Shown: positions 41,523 through 62,825 of the stretch, piece after piece | Layout of the letters: every line of letters starts with the position of its first letter | How positions within the stretch are numbered: the first letter of the stretch is position 1 | Assembly (NCBI GenBank): GCA_963790475.1 | Contig: CAWBOS010000012.1 | Span: 128,001 to 192,000 of the forward strand | DNA: 64,000 nt | From: an uncultured delta proteobacterium | GTDB lineage: Bacteria; Desulfobacterota; RBG-13-43-22 | Direction of reading: 5' to 3' | Notes under the pieces: generated by a model | Database searches by the model: none | Told to the model about the DNA's origin: nothing | What the model saw: the letters and a program-made list of their open reading frames with translations, nothing else | Program-made: the position numbers and the translations under genes

Positions 41523-42686
41523 ATGATAAATATTCATTCAAGCCAAAGCAATCGTAGCTCTAAAAGAAAGGGCAGGTGGGAAGCCTCTTATCGGACCCTC
41601 CTTGTTTTAGTAATTCTCCTTCTGTCCGCCTGCGCCGGCCGCCATCCACTGCCGCAGTTTTCGGTTGAACCGTTGCCCCGCTATGAGGCCCTTTTTCAGC
41701 GCAGTCAGGGATGGACCGGGGGTGATGGTGTTTTTTCCGTGGGACTCGACTCCAACCGGATTTTATGGCTCTTTGGCGACACCTTTATCGGTGAGGTCAA
41801 GGACGGGAGGCACATCGATGATGTTCTGGTCAACAACTCCATTGCCATTCAGAAGGGGAAGGAGCCGTTACCAACCGGGATAAATTTTTATTATGGTGAA
41901 ACAGTAAAGGGCAAACCTGAGGCCTTTTTGCGGCCTTCGGACGGGGTCGGCTGGTTCTGGCCTTATCATGGGGTGCGGACCAAAGACGGTCTGTTTCTTT
42001 TCCTGATTCAGGTTGAACGTACCGACGGGATACCGGGTTTCGATTTCAGGCCCGTGGCCACCTGGCTGGGCAAGGTCAGCAACCCGGATGATCCGCCCAA
42101 GAGCTGGCAGGTTTCACAGCAGAAGATTCCCTGGTCCGGAGAAAACAGGCTTTGGGGGTCTTCAGTTCTGGTCAAAGGAGAGAACTGCTATATCTTCGGC
42201 ACTGTCGATGAATCTTCCGCCGGCGTCAGACAAACCCAGTTGATCCTGGCCAGGGTACCTGCAGCCCAGATTATGGATTTCGATCAGTGGCGTTTTTTTT
42301 CTAAGGGGGAATGGGTGGACGAGGCCGACCGGGCCGAGGGCCTGAGCGCCAATGTGGCCAGTGAATTCTCGGTTTCTTTTCAGTCAGTCATCAATCAATA
42401 CCTGATGCTCTATACCCAGGACAGCCTTTCAAAATATATGGTTTTTCGTCTGGCCCCTGAACCCCACGGCCCTTGGGGCGCGCCGATCCGGTTTTACCGA
42501 TGCCCGGAGGCGGAGTGGGACCCGCGTATTTTCTGCTATGCCGCCAAAGGGCATCCTGAAATCTCTCTCTCCCCCGAGGAACTCATCGTCACCTATACCA
42601 CTAACTCAACGGATTTGGACTTGATTGAGTCGGACGCACGCCTGTACCGGCCCCGGTTCTTGAGGCTTCGGTTTTGGAGTCCTTAA
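41523..42686 (+). CDS. lipoprotein, DUF5005/DUF4185-like beta-propeller
   Basis: Lipobox LSAC; GWTGGDG-x2-S, WLFGDTF, GPW, YAAKGHP, YRP-x-F. Confidence 0.7.
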   Translation: MINIHSSQSNRSSKRKGRWEASYRTLLVLVILLLSACAGRHPLPQFSVEPLPRYEALFQRSQGWTGGDGVFSVGLDSNRILWLFGDTFIGEVKDGRHIDDVLVNNSIAIQKGKEPLPTGINFYYGETVKGKPEAFLRPSDGVGWFWPYHGVRTKDGLFLFLIQVERTDGIPGFDFRPVATWLGKVSNPDDPPKSWQVSQQKIPWSGENRLWGSSVLVKGENCYIFGTVDESSAGVRQTQLILARVPAAQIMDFDQWRFFSKGEWVDEADRAEGLSANVASEFSVSFQSVINQYLMLYTQDSLSKYMVFRLAPEPHGPWGAPIRFYRCPEAEWDPRIFCYAAKGHPEISLSPEELIVTYTTNSTDLDLIESDARLYRPRFLRLRFWSP

Positions 42687-42816: not shown

Positions 42817-43209
42817 ATGGAAATATATACATTAACTATTTCATTCCCATATGATGAGGATGATGTCCCTTGGTCAAGGATATTCGAGGTTAAGGAAGAC
42901 TGTACTCTACAAAATCTACATAAGTATATTCAAAAGATAGTAGATTTTGATGATGACCATTTGTATGAGTTTTACATCGGGAAAAATCCTAGAAATAGAG
43001 CTTATGCTGTTCCAAAGAAAACGAAACTAAATGAAATATACCCATTGACTGGCTGCAAATTATATTATCTTTTCGATTTTGGAGATAACTGGTTATTTGA
43101 GATCAAAAAATCAAGAAAGAAAAAAACAGAAAGTAAGCAAACAAAATATCCTGCACTAATTGAATCATCAGGTGTGAACCCAAAGCAGTATCCTGTTTAT
43201 GAAGATTGA
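42817..43209 (+). CDS. pRiA4b ORF-3-like protein, cassette-like and AT-rich
   Basis: TL-x2-LH-x2-IQ...FDDDHLYEF, YLFDFGDNW-x-F, YP...G-x2-P-x-QYP. Confidence 0.8.
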   Translation: MEIYTLTISFPYDEDDVPWSRIFEVKEDCTLQNLHKYIQKIVDFDDDHLYEFYIGKNPRNRAYAVPKKTKLNEIYPLTGCKLYYLFDFGDNWLFEIKKSRKKKTESKQTKYPALIESSGVNPKQYPVYED

Positions 43210-43264: not shown

Positions 43265-43590
43265 AGAGAGATCAATATGAACGACATCGATATGTCAATT
43301 CAATGGCAAGAAGGTAGCGGCGAGTCGGTAGAAATTGGTTTTCTAAATCCCAACCCGGACAAGCCGGAACCATATTTGAAATATTGTAACATTTGGTGGA
43401 TTCGTAAAAAGTCACCGAAAGCCTATTTTCGTCATTCCCTTGAAAAAGGGAATCCAGTGTTTTTAATAAGTTGAGAATAGCCTGGATTCCCGCCTCCGCG
43501 AGACCTTATGATTGAAAAAGAAAGGCAAGTCTCGAGTTTTCGGATATAGTCTTTTGTAGCAGCAAAAAACAAACCGAAAGGAGACTTGCC

Positions 43591-44657
43591 ATGGAACATG
43601 TTAACAAATTGGATTTTTCGGGTCAATCGATTTACGTAGGACTGGATGTCCATAAGAAGAGTTGGACCGTGAGTATTTTTTCGGAACAATGTGAGCATAA
43701 GACTTTTACCCAACCTCCGAAAACAGAAAAACTGGTCCATTATCTTAAACGCAATTTTCCCGGAGCGGCCTATCAGGCGGTGTATGAAGCCGGCTTCAGC
43801 GGCTTTTGGACTCATGATCAGCTTCGGGAGCAAGGAGTCCATTGTATTGTGGCCAATCCGGCCGATGTTCCGACGACGAATAAAGAACGAACCGGCAAAC
43901 GGGATCCCAGCGATTCCCGGAAGCTGGCCAGGAGCCTCCGGAACAGGGAATTGAAGGGGATATACGTACCGGTCCGTTCGAAACGGGAGGATCGCAGCCT
44001 GGTTCGAACCCGTCAGAGCATGGTGAGAAAGCAAACCCGGTGTAAAAATCAAATTAAGGCGCTCCTTTACTTTTATGGGATTAATCTGCCCGAAGATGTT
44101 GTTGACCGCCATTGGTCTCAAAAATTTCTTCGCTGTCTCGAAAATCTTCGAATGGAGCGGAGCAGTGGAGATAGGGCCCTCAAGGCCCACTTGGACGAAC
44201 TCCATCATCTCCAAGAGATCATCGCTTCTTTAAACCGGTCCATTATTTTGCTGTCCCGGGAAGCAGAATATCGCGAAAGGGTCCGGTTGTTAAAAACGGT
44301 CCCATCAGTACCCTGACGGCCATGATTTTCTTGACCGAGCTTGGTGAGTTGGCCCGATTTGCCTCTTTGGACAAGCTGGCCAGTTATGTCGGACTAATCC
44401 CCGATGTCGAATCCACTGGGGAGACCGAACATATAAAAAACTTAACCCATCGGCGAAACCCCCAGTTAAGGGCTTTGCTCATCGAAGCCGCTTGGGTGGC
44501 TGCCCGGAAGGATCCGGTCCTGCTCCTGGCCTTTAATGAATATTGCCAACGGATGAAGAAAACCAGGGCCATTATTAAAATTGCTCGGAAACTGCTCAAC
44601 CGCATTCGTTATGTATTAAAGAACCAGGTAGAATATGTTCCTGGGGTAGTTCAATAA
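43591..44657 (+). pseudogene. IS110 DEDD recombinase, frameshifted near 44302
   Basis: GLDVHK, YEAG, KRD-x2-D; KTVP then ISTLTAMIFLTELG in another frame; ASYVGL-x-P-x3-STG, ARKL. Confidence 0.88.
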
Positions 44658-44659
44658 TA

Positions 44660-45087
44660 ACTTGAAGAGGTGCTTCCAATCCGATAAATTGGCTCGTGGG
44701 CGTAAACGGTCCGTCATTCCTGCAGCTCATCGGTAGAGGGTGTCTGCTCTTCGCGAGACTCCGTGCCCACGATTTTAATATAATCAAGATGATGCAGCTA
44801 TCTGATCCAGATATGTCTGCTGATAGAAGGTTGATTTTAAAGATTGGTTCAGCCCTTAAGTTTGGTTTCAATTGCTCGACGGATCGGCTTCCGGGCTAAT
44901 CTCCTGCGGTTAAAAGAGAATAGCCCCAATTGGCCTCTTCATGGATGGCTGCCTGTTTCTATCGCAGGTAGTTCAGCCTCCTCAGGAGATCATACAGGTA
45001 GCCATCCATGAAGAGGTTTATCTTAAAAACCTTAAAAACCATTTAAAAGTCATTCTCTAATAAAAAAGACTTGCTTTTCAACATAGA
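44660..45087 (+). ncRNA. candidate bridge/seek RNA region in the IS right end
   Basis: ~430-nt non-coding end; cgtcattcc (44712-44720) and cttcgcg (44749-44755) match the target flanks; long stem 44934-45016. Confidence 0.55.
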
Positions 45088-45395
45088 GGAATGACGACGA
45101 AATATTCTATCCAAATTTGAGTAGAATTCTATTCCTAAGTTACTAACGGCCAGCAGTGCTGCGGTCATTGCGGAGTTCCGGGTACTGATCATGGGCAATA
45201 TGCATACAAGACTGAATGTACCATCTGTGGCTGTGTGTATGGAACAAATGGATCCGATATGCACGAAAGGCGATGTCCCGAATGCCAGAAAGGGGCTGCC
45301 GGGATAAAGTACTGGAGGACTATCCCCGGCTAAACGCAGGGTGACTACGGATATGGCCGAATCGATCAATCAGATAACCCAGGACTTTAATTTTA

Positions 45396-46940
45396 TTATC
45401 CAAACAATCCGCTTCCGCCCAGTTCATCCCACAGCAACCGAAACTCACGCCGATAATCATTCTCGGCCCGGGTGTTGACATCAAAAATCATAGTGGCCCG
45501 CCTGACGGCGTCATAGGACGGCCAGTCGGGAGTGAGGTCCGAATTCGGGACCCCGGTTTTGGCGAAGTTGGTCCAGACGGCGGCGAAACGGTCCACCAGC
45601 AATTTGCCTTCCCGGTCTCCGCAATCGTTGATGGGACCGCGGGGATCATGCACAGCCGCACCCACATCCACCCCATGAACGGCGCCGAATTGGCCGTTAT
45701 AAGATTTGACCGTCTTTTCCCACAGGTAATAATAAACAGGGGCGCCATTCTGAGCCGCCTTCAATTCCGCCTGTTTAATGGCGCTATAACGGAAACCCCG
45801 ATCAGTGGCAATGCGGGCCTGGATCAGGAACGGCGCCACCTGGGGATAAGTTTCCCGATAGAGTTTATAAACCCGGCTGGCATTTCCCTCAAATTGTTGG
45901 TCCAGATTCTGTTTGAGTTGAGCTTCACTGAGATCGAAGTTGGCCATGCCGATAGCCGCATCGTCCAGGGTCGTGCCGATGATGACCGGAATATGGGCAG
46001 ACTCCGGAGGTGCCGTTGGATGAAAGGGATGATGAGGCAATACCTCACTGCCGATGACCGGGACGAATCGTCCCACATCAAACCCCAAACTGGTCTGGGC
46101 AGCCAGGATTTGAGTGAAAGGCAGATTCTGCAATTGGGGGATATTCTTTTTGTCGATACCCAGCGCTTTTAAAAGGGCCTCGGTATTCCTGGTGGCATTT
46201 TCCGGTTCTGCCAGACGCAAGGAAGAGCCGCTTTGCACCCCGGCGCGATGAAAGAGACCTTTGGCCGAAGGCATGGCCAGGAGGGTGCTGGTTTTAGCAC
46301 CGCCTCCGGATTGGCCGAAAATCATCACCCGGTTCGAGTCGCCCCCGAAGTGTTCGATATTGGTTTGCACCCATTGCAGCGCGGCTACCATGTCCATGGC
46401 CCCGACCACGCCGGCATATTTGAACTCCTCGGGCGCCCCCAGGTCGGCCAGGTGCAAAAATCCGAAGGCGGCCAGGCGATGATTGACAGAGACCATGACC
46501 ACATCGTCGTGGCGAGCCGCCGGTTCCCCGTCAAATCCAAAGGCATTGCCGGAGCCCGTTACAAAACCGCCGCCGTGAAATATGACCATCACCGCCCTTT
46601 TGGCGCTGTCGTTGACACTTCTCGTCCAGACATTCAAGGCCAGACAATCTTCGCCGATGCCTCCTGGTTGCCTGTCCCACAGAATGAGATTAGTGTAATC
46701 GCCTCGTCGGTCTGCCGGAGTCTGCGGGCTGATTTGACCGTAATTGAAGGTGTCCTGAACACCTGTCCAGGATGCCGGCGGTTGGGGCGGCCGGTAGCGG
46801 TTTTTACCTTCCGTAGAGGCCCCATATCGGATACCTTTAAAAGTTTTTACGCCTTGGTGATTAATACCGCGGACCTTACCATATTGCGTTTCTACCACTG
46901 GGAATAATTTGGCTTCCATAACCGATGCCGGTGTGTTCAT
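45396..46940 (-). CDS. type-B carboxylesterase (PnbA-like)
   Basis: TQYGKVRG, FKGIRYG, EDCLALNVWT, HGGGF, FGQSGGG, AVHG; RBS aaggag before MNTP. Confidence 0.9.
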   Translation of the reverse strand: MNTPASVMEAKLFPVVETQYGKVRGINHQGVKTFKGIRYGASTEGKNRYRPPQPPASWTGVQDTFNYGQISPQTPADRRGDYTNLILWDRQPGGIGEDCLALNVWTRSVNDSAKRAVMVIFHGGGFVTGSGNAFGFDGEPAARHDDVVMVSVNHRLAAFGFLHLADLGAPEEFKYAGVVGAMDMVAALQWVQTNIEHFGGDSNRVMIFGQSGGGAKTSTLLAMPSAKGLFHRAGVQSGSSLRLAEPENATRNTEALLKALGIDKKNIPQLQNLPFTQILAAQTSLGFDVGRFVPVIGSEVLPHHPFHPTAPPESAHIPVIIGTTLDDAAIGMANFDLSEAQLKQNLDQQFEGNASRVYKLYRETYPQVAPFLIQARIATDRGFRYSAIKQAELKAAQNGAPVYYYLWEKTVKSYNGQFGAVHGVDVGAAVHDPRGPINDCGDREGKLLVDRFAAVWTNFAKTGVPNSDLTPDWPSYDAVRRATMIFDVNTRAENDYRREFRLLWDELGGSGLFG

Positions 46941-47168
46941 CAGGGTCTCCTTTTTCATGTGATCTCTTTTTATGTTACCCCGGTTGACAGAAACCTGCCT
47001 TGAGGTGGCTGAAGTATAGGTGAAGATTTTCCGGCGTGTCAAGAAATATTGGGCATTAAAATACAGAAGGGAAACCAATAAGAGGCGTATGGGGATGATG
47101 AGGTAAATAAAGAAAGCCCAGCCAACTATTAACGAGAGCTTAAAATAGGTTACATCACTGAAACATTT

Positions 47169-47349
47169 TTTCACCGCCCACTCGTCGGGATAAAAGCGGG
47201 ACTCGTTCGAGACGCAGAGAACGCAGTGATAAGATTTTCATTTGCCGGTGAGAGGCGGCAAACGAAAAAAGCTCTTTTTGCTTTCCGGCCTCTCACCGGA
47301 AAGCAAAAAATGTTCTTGCTCTGGGTCCTTTGCGGCTCTGCGGTGAAAA
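47169..47349. repeat. MITE-like palindromic element related to 38921-39107
   Basis: ttttcaccgc...ctttgcggctctgcggtgaaaa; shared gtgagaggcgg hairpin loop. Confidence 0.6.
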
Positions 47350-62550: not shown

Positions 62551-62629
62551 GTCATGCCGGGCTTGATCCGGCATCCAGGGGCTTTGATGCTATGGGAATA
62601 ACCTGGATTCCCGCCTCCGCGGGAATGAC
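62551..62629. repeat. REP-like double hairpin (intact version of the IS110 target)
   Basis: gtcatgccgggcttgatccggcatccag...ctggattcccgcctccgcgggaatgac. Confidence 0.8.
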
Positions 62630-62825
62630 GGCTTAACTCCTTGGTCTTAAAAAATTTTCATGCTTCGTAGTGGCTCAACGAGGCATGAGGGTTTAGTTCG
62701 AAAATTCCCCCCGGGACGCTTGCCTAAAAAGGCCGATTGACTTATAATGGCAGAAATGATTCCCTCTGACCAACACATGGGAACCAACTCTAAATTTCTT
62801 ACCCGATCACGTGCATTGGAGAACA

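What the first reader, a model, noticed from the sequence alone, without database searches (positions are those of the whole stretch)
43431..45099. REP-targeting IS110/IS1111 element with a readable candidate bridge RNA
Seen: the element splits a REP arm exactly (cgcctccgcg | ggaatgacg; intact arm near 62612) with no duplication. Its ~430-nt 3' non-coding end contains cgtcattcc (44712-44720), the exact reverse complement of the right target flank, and ~30 nt later cttcgcg (44749-44755), matching the left flank ctccgcg with one mismatch. atagaag (44823-44829) matches the predicted donor junction cataga|ag. Known: IS110-family recombinases use bridge/seek RNAs with target- and donor-binding loops, and IS1111-group elements encode them downstream of the gene and have sub-terminal IRs. 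Inference: a natural programmable recombinase system aimed at this genome's REP family.
Basis: partly seen in the sequence, partly recalled or inferred. Interest (0 to 1): 0.82.

Follow-up and report, generated by a model that had tools for sequence, protein, structure and literature searches.

The report
RNA-guided insertion sequence splitting a REP
A small jumping gene of the IS1111 kind sits inside a short genomic repeat and carries, behind its broken transposase gene, a guide-RNA gene whose variable loops spell out the site it inserted into; it is a clear new example of a mechanism described in 2024, not a new mechanism.

Summary
Window 43501-45087 is a 1587-bp IS110-family element of the IS1111 type. 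It lies inside a REP hairpin, with no target duplication. Its transposase gene is broken by a 4-bp deletion. The 430-nt non-coding stretch after the transposase gene encodes a two-module bridge/seek RNA. The structure is supported in 32 relatives: 92% of cells are paired, against 32-37% when partners are slid. Guide covariation is decisive. Two intact sister copies in this genome (89% identical) changed the guides to CGTCACCCC and CTTCACT, and they sit in a different REP type that matches those guides. Across 28 distinct guide pairs from public genomes, guide-to-flank matches exceeded all 2000 shuffled pairings. The second guide also covers the first four bases of the element. ATAGAAG lies in a second, donor-type loop and covaries with the right end. 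RNA expression was not shown. REP-targeting IS1111 elements with seekRNAs (ISPa11) and natural retargeting (ISEc11/ISXne4) are already published, so this is a new member of a known kind.

The parts
43429..43500 (+). Left flank. It holds an inverted REP hairpin (43434-43453) and the left part of the split REP (ctggattcccgcctccgcg, 43482-43500).
   Evidence: I13, I15. The same sequence is uninterrupted in 15 sites of the genome.
43501..45087 (+). Insertion sequence, 1587 bp, AGACC...CATAGA, with no target duplication.
43501..43532 (+). Left end: a 7-nt terminal extension (AGACCTT), then the sub-terminal inverted repeat (ATGATTGAAAAAG...GGCAAGTCT).
   Evidence: I10: 13-nt block, 92% complementary to 45067-45079.
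43591..44316 (+). Transposase ORF, N-terminal part (DEDD/RuvC-like domain). It ends prematurely after a 4-bp deletion at about 44303/44304.
   Evidence: PF01548, E 3.5e-15. The deletion is seen against copies B and C.
44322..44657 (+). Transposase ORF, C-terminal part, in another frame.
   Evidence: PF02371, E 2.3e-14. The intact 356-aa form is in copies B and C.
44676..44847 (+). Bridge/seek RNA core. It runs from the outer helix CCAATC (44676-44681) to GATTGG (44842-44847) and encloses two modules.
   Evidence: Helix 1 is 91% paired, with CG/GC/AU exchanges at its first pair.
44695..44771 (+). Target-binding module. It has a basal stem CGTGGGC/GCCCACG plus ACGG/CCGT, an internal loop, and an apical stem GCAGC...GUCUGC.
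44712..44721 (+). Guide T1 (CGTCATTCCT), complementary to the top strand of the right flank.
   Evidence: I14. It covaries with the flank.
44748..44759 (+). Guide T2 (TCTTCGCG + AGAC). It has the same sense as the left flank plus the first 4 nt of the element, so it would pair with the bottom strand.
   Evidence: Its 3' part covaries with the left end (AGAC, AGAT, AGGT).
44782..44836 (+). Second, donor-type module. It has a closing stem AATCAA/TTGATT, a loop with D1 (44788-44793) and D2 (44821-44830, TGATAGAAGG), and an apical stem GCAGC...GTCTGC.
44934..45016 (+). Extra hairpin (23-nt arms) between the RNA and the right end. Its function is unknown.
   Evidence: I1. It is kept in B and C by one compensatory change and one G·U. 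It is absent from remnant F and from relatives with short ends.
45067..45087 (+). Right end: the sub-terminal inverted repeat (AGACTTGCTTTTCAACAT), then a 3-nt extension (AGA).
   Evidence: I10.
45088..45097 (+). Right part of the split REP (ggaatgacga).
   Evidence: I13, I14.

Best explanation
Window 43501-45087 is an IS1111-type member of the IS110 family of RNA-guided insertion sequences. The non-coding stretch after its transposase gene encodes a bridge/seek RNA of about 170-190 nt with two similar modules.

In the first module an internal loop presents two guides. T1 (44712-44721) pairs with the top strand of the target right of the crossover. T2 (44748-44759) pairs with the bottom strand left of the crossover and, through its last 4 nt, with the first bases of the element. 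In the second module, loop segment D2 (ATAGAAG) reads the element's right end abutted to its left end.

A DEDD-type transposase bound to this RNA would recombine a circular copy of the element into the 3' arm of one REP subfamily (CTCCGCG|GGAATGACG), in one orientation and without duplication.

The window copy has a frameshifted transposase gene and is non-autonomous. Two 89%-identical sister copies carry intact genes and retargeted guides.

Shown here: anatomy, family membership, RNA structure conservation, and guide-target and guide-end covariation. Inferred: that the RNA is made, binds the transposase and directs recombination.
For: Protein: PF01548 plus PF02371. The intact sister copy scores 198.8 bits against NF033542, 'IS110 family RNA-guided transposase', cut-off 140. 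It carries the GLIPDVESSG motif and aligns distantly with the solved IS621 and ISCro4 transposases.

Anatomy: 7-nt and 3-nt extensions outside sub-terminal inverted repeats, a 430-nt downstream non-coding region, and no duplication.

Covariation within the genome: copies A and D carry CGTCATTCCT and CTTCGCG. Copy A's flanks are CTCCGCG | GGAATGACG. Copy D sits in a degenerate site, TTTCGCG | AGGAAGGATG, where the T1 match is 8/10. Copies B and C carry CGTCACCCCT and CTTCACT, with flanks TTTCACC | AGGGGTGACG.

Covariation across relatives: 57 of 80 fetched loci plus 4 of 4 own copies matched a strict scaffold pattern. For 47 of these 61, both flanks were located. They reduce to 28 distinct guide pairs. 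The mean right match is 8.46 of 10, against 5.90 in shuffled pairings (highest of 2000: 6.61). The mean left match is 5.0 of 8, against 2.55 (highest 3.43). Nine of 28 match 10/10 and seven match 9/10.

The T2 3' end tracks the left end: AGAC with AGACC, AGAT with AGATC, AGGT with AGGTCC. D2 tracks the right end: ATAGA, ATAAA, ATAGG.

Structure: 92.1% of 1180 cells are paired, against 31.7-36.9% when partners are slid. There are 76 doubly changed cells, against 31.4 in shuffles (0 of 500 reach it).

Literature: the guide order, guide overlap, RNA size and REP targeting match PMC11187229 (sections 4, 8, 9, 10).
Against: No evidence here shows that the RNA is transcribed or processed. Nothing in Rfam matched it. 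The metatranscriptome contigs laid on the region are fragmentary and mostly from relatives.

The window copy has no working transposase.

Two of the five structure measures did not stand out from shuffles: pairs with a change on both sides were 10 against 9.1 (185 of 500 shuffles reach it), and further pair types were 33 against 30.1 (46 of 500). The structure was derived from the window sequence, which favours it in the slide control.

Four of 28 guide pairs matched their right flank at only 5-6 of 10. At least L023 and L029 look like ends wrongly placed by my pattern (compare).

D1 shows no consistent complementarity to the left end.

The transposase is 356 aa, slightly outside the 330-350 aa given for IS1111. 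It is only about 24% identical to IS4321. Its place in the IS1111 clade was not tested by a tree.
Confidence: 0.9

Rival explanations
1. The guide-like strings are REP debris picked up in the element's tail, or chance matches. The transposase recognises the REP hairpin without RNA.
For: CGTCATTCC is identical to the outer arm of the neighbouring inverted REP at 43430-43438 (I13). REP tails such as GGAATGAC are very common in this genome, with 475 copies. This raises the background match in shuffled pairings to 5.9 of 10. A published preprint reports that a target stem-loop adds specificity for ISPpu10 (10.64898/2026.03.19.712850, abstract only).
Against: The strings sit at fixed places in a conserved, covarying RNA scaffold. 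They change together with the target, including targets without the GTGAC/ATGAC REP tail of this genome, such as AGCATAAAAT (L044) and AGGAAGCTA (L037). No shuffled pairing reached the observed match.
Confidence: 0.03
2. Copies A (window) and D are inert relics. Their shared frameshift spread by gene conversion between copies, not by transposition of a defective element, and their RNA no longer does anything.
For: Both have the same 4-bp deletion, and D has a further 136-bp deletion. The genome also holds three decayed remnants. No expression data exist.
Against: A and D differ by only 5 substitutions in 1451 aligned bases and lie at two unrelated sites. Both sites fit the A/D-type guides: right 10/10 and 8/10, with left matches CT(C/T)CGCG for A and TTCGCG for D. 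Every helix of the RNA scaffold is intact in A. Transposase and seekRNA supplied from outside a mini-element work experimentally for ISEc11 (PMC11187229, section 10).
Confidence: 0.4
3. The element belongs to the IS110 group proper, some members of which also have a 3' non-coding region, rather than to the IS1111 group.
For: The transposase is 356 aa and only about 24% identical to IS4321 and IS5075. The best solved relatives are ISCro4 and IS621. The inverted repeat is gapped, not a clean 11-13 bp block.
Against: The terminal extensions are 7 nt and 3 nt. The GL-P----SG motif is present. The RNA lies downstream. The top-strand complement comes before the bottom-strand match. PMC11187229 (sections 4, 6, 9) gives all four as IS1111 traits and says the guide order is reversed in IS110.
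Confidence: 0.1

Closest known systems
ISPa11 (IS1111 family, Pseudomonas aeruginosa) and its seekRNA (PMC11187229)
   Same: It has a downstream non-coding region that encodes a seekRNA of about 80-100 nt. [quoted passage not shown] It inserts at a fixed position in REP sequences, and it has sub-terminal inverted repeats.
   Different: It has a different host lineage and a different REP. The present transposase is under 35% identical to anything in the plasmid collection.
ISEc11 / ISXne4 natural reprogramming (PMC11187229, section 10)
   Same: Related elements keep the RNA stems but have exchanged guide bases that match different targets.
   Different: Here the two variants coexist in one genome and are 89% identical. 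They differ at only 2 + 2 guide positions and address two subfamilies of the same repeat. One variant has lost its transposase.
IS621 bridge RNA (PMC11208160; structures 8wt6 and others)
   Same: The RNA has two internal loops, one for the target and one for the donor. Each reads both DNA strands. The target guide extends onto the donor end, which resembles the 'handshake' guides of IS621 (recalled from the structure paper, not read here). IS621 also targets REPs.
   Different: In IS621 the RNA lies upstream of the gene and the guide order is reversed. IS621 uses a defined CT core. Here the flank match starts 0 or 1 nt from the element end, and no fixed core could be established.
ISPpu9/Ssr9 and ISPpu10 of Pseudomonas putida (PMC12288879 and 10.64898/2026.03.19.712850, abstracts only)
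   Same: They are REP-inserted IS110-family elements. Copies of the RNA gene exist without a working transposase gene, and trans-mobilisation is reported.
   Different: Ssr9 was reported as not required for transposition. Here the RNA modules of the remnants carry guide-type loops.

Membership tests
IS110 family (DEDD transposase elements) | Transposase with an N-terminal DEDD/RuvC-like domain and a C-terminal PF02371 domain. | tested here: met
   PF01548 and PF02371 in the two ORF pieces. NF033542 at 198.8 bits, cut-off 140, for the intact sister copy.
IS110 family (DEDD transposase elements) | Full DEDD tetrad and the catalytic Ser of the SG motif. | tested here: inconclusive
   The SG motif (GLIPDVESSG) and the first Asp (VGLDVHK) align with IS621 and ISCro4. 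The other three acidic residues were not individually mapped.
IS110 family (DEDD transposase elements) | Site- and orientation-specific insertion without target duplication. | tested here: met
   The flanks join to the uninterrupted repeat exactly. All copies have the same orientation relative to the REP.
IS1111 group | Sub-terminal inverted repeats with terminal extensions of 7 nt (left) and 3 nt (right). | tested here: met
   AGACCTT|ATG... on the left and ...CAT|AGA on the right. There is a 13-nt block at 92% (I10). The repeat is interrupted by 1-nt and 5-nt insertions in the left arm.
IS1111 group | The long non-coding region lies downstream of tnp. | tested here: met
   430 nt downstream against 90 nt upstream.
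IS1111 group | Transposase of 330-350 aa with a GL-P----S(T)G motif. | tested here: inconclusive
   The motif is present. The length is 356 aa, slightly outside the range.
IS1111 group | The transposase falls in the IS1111 clade in a phylogeny. | not tested
   No ISfinder reference set was available. It is about 24% identical to IS4321 over 82% of its length.
seekRNA / bridge RNA | Two guide segments in an internal loop, one complementary to each DNA strand, with the top-strand complement first (IS1111 order). | tested here: met
   T1 at 44712-44721 and T2 at 44748-44759 lie on the two sides of one loop, between helices 3 and 4. The order is as in PMC11187229, section 9.
seekRNA / bridge RNA | Guides covary with the insertion sites. 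| tested here: met
   In one search, 0 of 2000 shuffles reach the observed match.
seekRNA / bridge RNA | A donor-binding loop that reads the element ends. | tested here: inconclusive
   D2 covaries with the right end (ATAGA, ATAAA, ATAGG). D1 shows no consistent complementarity to the left end.
seekRNA / bridge RNA | The RNA is transcribed, co-purifies with the transposase and is required for movement. | not testable with these tools
   The runs laid are contigs and are mostly from relatives. They give no statement on transcription.
seekRNA / bridge RNA | Abutted ends of the circular form create a promoter. | tested here: inconclusive
   The best sigma-70-like match on the computed junction spans it: TTGCTT, 17 nt, TATGAT, 8 of 12. 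No plus-strand promoter-like site was found in the linear copy. These are consensus matches only.
REP (repetitive extragenic palindrome) | A short palindromic unit repeated many times outside genes. | tested here: met
   GGAATGAC tails occur 475 times and GGGGTGAC 261 times, with hairpin variants. There are 15 uninterrupted copies of the A-type site.

The most novel reading that the evidence does not exclude
Copies A (window) and D are natural 'guide-only' elements. They lost their transposase through a shared 4-bp deletion, then still moved, using the transposase of the 89%-identical sister copies B and C together with their own differently programmed RNA. If so, a defective element redirects a sibling's enzyme to a second REP subfamily. 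That would be a natural split, trans-acting bridge system in which the RNA gene is the selfish unit.
Probability: 0.35. Interest if true: 0.55.

Novelty: new member of a known kind. Interest (0 to 1): 0.45.

Why it matters
The mechanism was published in 2024, so the finding does not open a new question. It has three uses.

- It gives a clean natural demonstration of retargeting inside one genome. Two base changes in each guide move the element between two REP subfamilies.
- It provides a family of at least 28 natural guide-target pairs on one conserved RNA scaffold. These come from uncultured sediment and soil bacteria, and the transposases are under 35% identical to the plasmid-borne named elements. 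That is raw material for comparative rules: G·U tolerance on the bottom-strand guide, a 0/1-nt offset on the right side, and a 4-nt guide extension onto the element end.
- It offers a candidate case of trans-mobilised, transposase-less guide carriers.

Tried and rejected
Rfam (E up to 1 over 43300-45300) gave only two chance-level hits, tracrRNA and SNORD105, both far below their gathering scores. No curated family covers this RNA.

RNA evidence. One search of sequencing runs listed 21 runs. Two are on record as RNA (X19, X20), each holding 0.08 of the sampled words. Laid at 85% likeness, they gave short contigs over parts of the element, mostly 85-95% alike, so they come from relatives. Nothing usable covered 44707-44773. 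One X19 contig joins 44846 to 45058, the arrangement seen in relatives that lack the extra hairpin. None of this shows transcription.

Empty allele. Run X1 has contigs that continue from 43500 into GGAATGACGACGA and from GGATTCCCGCCTCCGCG into 45088. I first read this as an unoccupied allele. I rejected that because the same 162-nt joined form exists at paralogous repeat units in the assembly.

Orthologous empty site. A search of 20 relatives with the right flank gave only partial matches. The best was G004, 82% identical from query base 270, close to a contig start. No empty orthologous locus was obtained.

Core dinucleotide. I tried to fit an IS621-like 2-nt core (AG). It fits B, C and D. 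It does not fit copy A or the uninterrupted B-type REPs, which lack the A. A heteroduplex-resolution model can be made to fit, but it is untested. I therefore report only that the flank match starts 0 or 1 nt from the element end.

D1 (44788-44793). Complementarity to the left end is partial in some loci (AAGGT(T)CT) and absent in many others. It was not decoded.

Promoter scan. No plus-strand site was found in the linear copy. The junction promoter is weak, 8 of 12.

MFE folding alone was uninformative: z -0.30 for 243 nt and -1.35 for 101 nt.

Supplementary files of the papers were not opened. The supplementary figures and tables of PMC11187229 (phylogeny, seekRNA folds) and Supplementary Table 5 of PMC11208160 may already list relatives of this clade.

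No literature search was made for this particular lineage.

Rows dropped before counts. In one search, 14 of 61 rows lacked a located flank, and identical guide pairs were merged to 28. For alignment A2 I left out 8 of the 38 distinct related sequences: L013 (no second module), L029, L072 and L074 (long insertions), L083 and L091 (diverged 3' part), and L050 and L070 (near-duplicates).
Full report
**What is there.**
The stretch 43501-45087 is a 1587-bp insertion sequence. It starts AGACCTTATG and ends CAACATAGA. The left flank ends ...ggattcccgcctccgcg, and the right flank starts ggaatgacgacg. Joined, the flanks give exactly the uninterrupted repeat found elsewhere: 15 sites of the pattern [CT]T[CT]CGCG-GGAATGACG, one of them at about 62600-62630 in the window. 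There is no target duplication.

The repeat is the last hairpin of a unit of about 190 nt that occurs at least nine times.

The element carries two ORF pieces with the two IS110-family transposase domains: PF01548 at 43591-44316 and PF02371 at 44322-44657. A 4-bp deletion at about 44303/44304 separates them. After the stop codon at 44655-44657 come 430 non-coding bases.

**Other copies in the same genome.**
The assembly (6.34 Mb, 20 contigs) holds four long copies:
- A is the window copy.
- D (C12:1483070-1484520) differs from A by 5 substitutions in 1451 aligned bases. It has the same 4-bp deletion and one further 136-bp deletion.
- B (C13:478883-480472) and C (C1:240097-241686) are 89% identical to A (172 mismatches in 1585). 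They differ from each other at 9 positions. Each has an intact 356-aa transposase gene with a GTG start.

The intact protein scores 198.8 bits against NCBIfam NF033542, 'IS110 family RNA-guided transposase', cut-off 140. It carries GLIPDVESSG, the GL-P----SG motif. It aligns distantly with the solved ISCro4 and IS621 transposases.

A profile of the RNA region finds six RNA modules in the genome: the four copies above and two remnants that have lost most of the transposase gene.

**The decisive test: guides against flanks.**

| Copies | First segment | Second segment | Left flank | Right flank |
|---|---|---|---|---|
| A and D | CGTCATTCCT | CTTCGCG-AGAC | A: CTCCGCG; D: TTTCGCG | A: GGAATGACG; D: AGGAAGGATG |
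| B and C | CGTCACCCCT | CTTCACT-AGAC | TTTCACC | AGGGGTGACG |

B and C sit in a different REP type. The first segment is therefore the exact complement of the right flank in both lineages, and the second follows the left flank. Where guide and top strand differ, the guide has T and the flank has C. An RNA pairing with the bottom strand would form G·U there.

**Relatives elsewhere.**
A scan of one genome per species with the copy B protein confirmed 107 relatives among 138 candidate stretches, and 80 loci were kept (54-87% identity). They come from metagenome-assembled genomes labelled delta proteobacteria, Nitrospirota, Ignavibacteria and others.

A strict pattern found the scaffold in 57 of the 80 loci and in all four own copies. 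The scaffold is CGTGGGC-ACGG-[about 10 variable nt]-GCAGC-hairpin-CTGC-[about 8 variable nt]-AGAC-T-CCGT-GCCCAC. Some of the 23 misses visibly have the scaffold with variant letters.

Both flanks could be located for 47 of the 61 matches. These reduce to 28 distinct guide pairs.
- The complement of the first segment matches the right flank at a mean of 8.46 of 10 positions: nine pairs at 10/10, seven at 9/10 and four at 5-6/10. Shuffled pairings gave 5.90, with a highest value of 6.61 in 2000.
- The second segment matches the left flank at 5.0 of 8 (5.43 counting wobble). Shuffled pairings gave 2.55, with a highest value of 3.43.

The targets include sequences unlike this genome's REP tail, for example AGCATAAAAT (L044) and AGGAAGCTA (L037). 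The match is therefore not REP debris.

The last four bases of the second segment follow the element's own left end. They read AGAC where the end is AGACC, AGAT where it is AGATC (L024, L027) and AGGT where it is AGGTCC (L073, L079).

**RNA structure.**
On an alignment of 32 sequences I specified six helices, 37 pairs in all, derived from the window sequence.
- 92.1% of 1180 cells form standard pairs, against 31.7-36.9% with partners slid by 1-3 columns.
- 76 cells are changed on both sides, against 31.4 ± 5.3 in shuffles (0 of 500 reach it).
- Clear exchanges occur in the outer helix (CG 15, GC 8, AU 3), the basal stem (CG 22, UA 7), the ACGG/CCGU helix (CG 15, GC 8, AU 2, UA 2) and the second apical stem.
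- Two measures were not distinctive: pairs with any double change (10 against 9.1) and further pair types (33 against 30.1).

Both guide segments lie on opposite sides of a single internal loop, 44710-44721 and 44748-44760. This module is 77 nt long (44695-44771), close to the 82-96 nt reported for IS1111 seekRNAs.

A second module of the same design lies at 44782-44836. That segment changes with the element's right end: ATAGA with ...CATAGA, ATAAA with ...CATAAA, and ATAGG with ...CATAGG. The 5' side of that loop could not be decoded.

An outer helix, 44676-44681 with 44842-44847, encloses both modules.

**Comparison with what is known.**
Siddiquee et al. (PMC11187229, sections 4, 6, 8, 9, 10 and 13 read) define IS1111 elements by:
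- sub-terminal inverted repeats with 7-nt and 3-nt extensions;
- a downstream non-coding region;
- a GL-P----S(T)G motif;
- a seekRNA of 70-100 nt, inside a longer precursor, with the top-strand complement 5' of the bottom-strand match and the two matches overlapping in the target.

They report REP targeting by ISPa11 and natural retargeting between ISEc11 and ISXne4. Durrant et al. (PMC11208160, passages on IS1111 read) predict bridge RNAs in the right end of 93% of IS1111 elements.

The present element meets these features, with two reservations. The inverted repeat is gapped, and the protein is 356 aa rather than 330-350. Its placement in the IS1111 clade was not tested by a tree. It is only about 24% identical to IS4321 and IS5075 and at most 34% identical to anything in the plasmid collection.

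It is therefore a new member of a known kind.

**What remains open.**
- Transcription was not shown.
- The flank match of the first guide starts either directly after ...CATAGA (copy A; AGG 10 plus GGG 3 of 43 distinct insertions) or one base later, after an A (copies B, C and D; AAG 21 plus GAG 3). Yet the uninterrupted B-type REPs in this genome lack that A. I could not settle whether a core dinucleotide is exchanged.
- A and D share the frameshift, lie at different sites and both fit their own guides. This suggests that a transposase-less element moved with a sibling's enzyme. Gene conversion is the alternative.

Noticed in passing
window 43340-43500 and 45088-45135; paralogues e.g. G000 C10:1086306, C11:39376, C13:134566: The split REP is the end of a composite repeat unit of about 190 nt, made of two REP hairpins in opposite orientation plus spacer. 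It occurs uninterrupted at least nine times in the genome. Three copies are identical over the 149 nt left of the insertion point. The right-hand 47 nt recur in many genomes of the same genus.
   Followed up: partly
window 44934-45016: A hairpin with 23-nt arms lies inside the element, between the RNA gene and the right end. It is kept in copies B and C by a compensatory change plus a G·U pair. It is absent from remnant F and from relatives with a short right end. It may be a terminator, a processing signal or an inserted module.
   Followed up: partly
G000 C12:755202-755481 (L007): This is a remnant of a B-type copy. Its left junction reads CACC|GGACC, so the first base is G rather than A. 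The element is cut at about position 282 and joined directly to GGGTGACGAC, the right half of the REP. It looks like an internal deletion that ends exactly at the target boundary.
   Followed up: no
G000 C15:486198-486889 (L006/L009) and C13:444758-445044 (L008/L010): Two decayed copies have lost most of the transposase gene but keep a complete two-module RNA region and the right end. This recalls the solo ssr9 copies described for ISPpu9.
   Followed up: partly
window 43524-43533 with 43581-43590: A perfect 10-nt inverted repeat (GGCAAGTCTC / GAGACTTGCC) lies in the left end. Its 3' arm abuts the ribosome-binding site and the start codon at 43591. It may occlude translation.
   Followed up: no
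G000 C12:1482990-1483070 (left of copy D): The 31-nt stretch agtcttttcaacctggattcctgctttcgcg occurs twice in tandem-like fashion just left of copy D. The right flank of D (AGGAAGGATG) matches the guide at only 8 of 10 positions. D sits in a degenerate or rearranged REP.
   Followed up: no
window 45396-47174 (minus strand): The neighbouring 592-aa ORF contains a GQSGGG motif and looks like a type-B carboxylesterase by recall only. The ORFs at 41523-42686 and 42817-43209 upstream were not identified.
   Followed up: no
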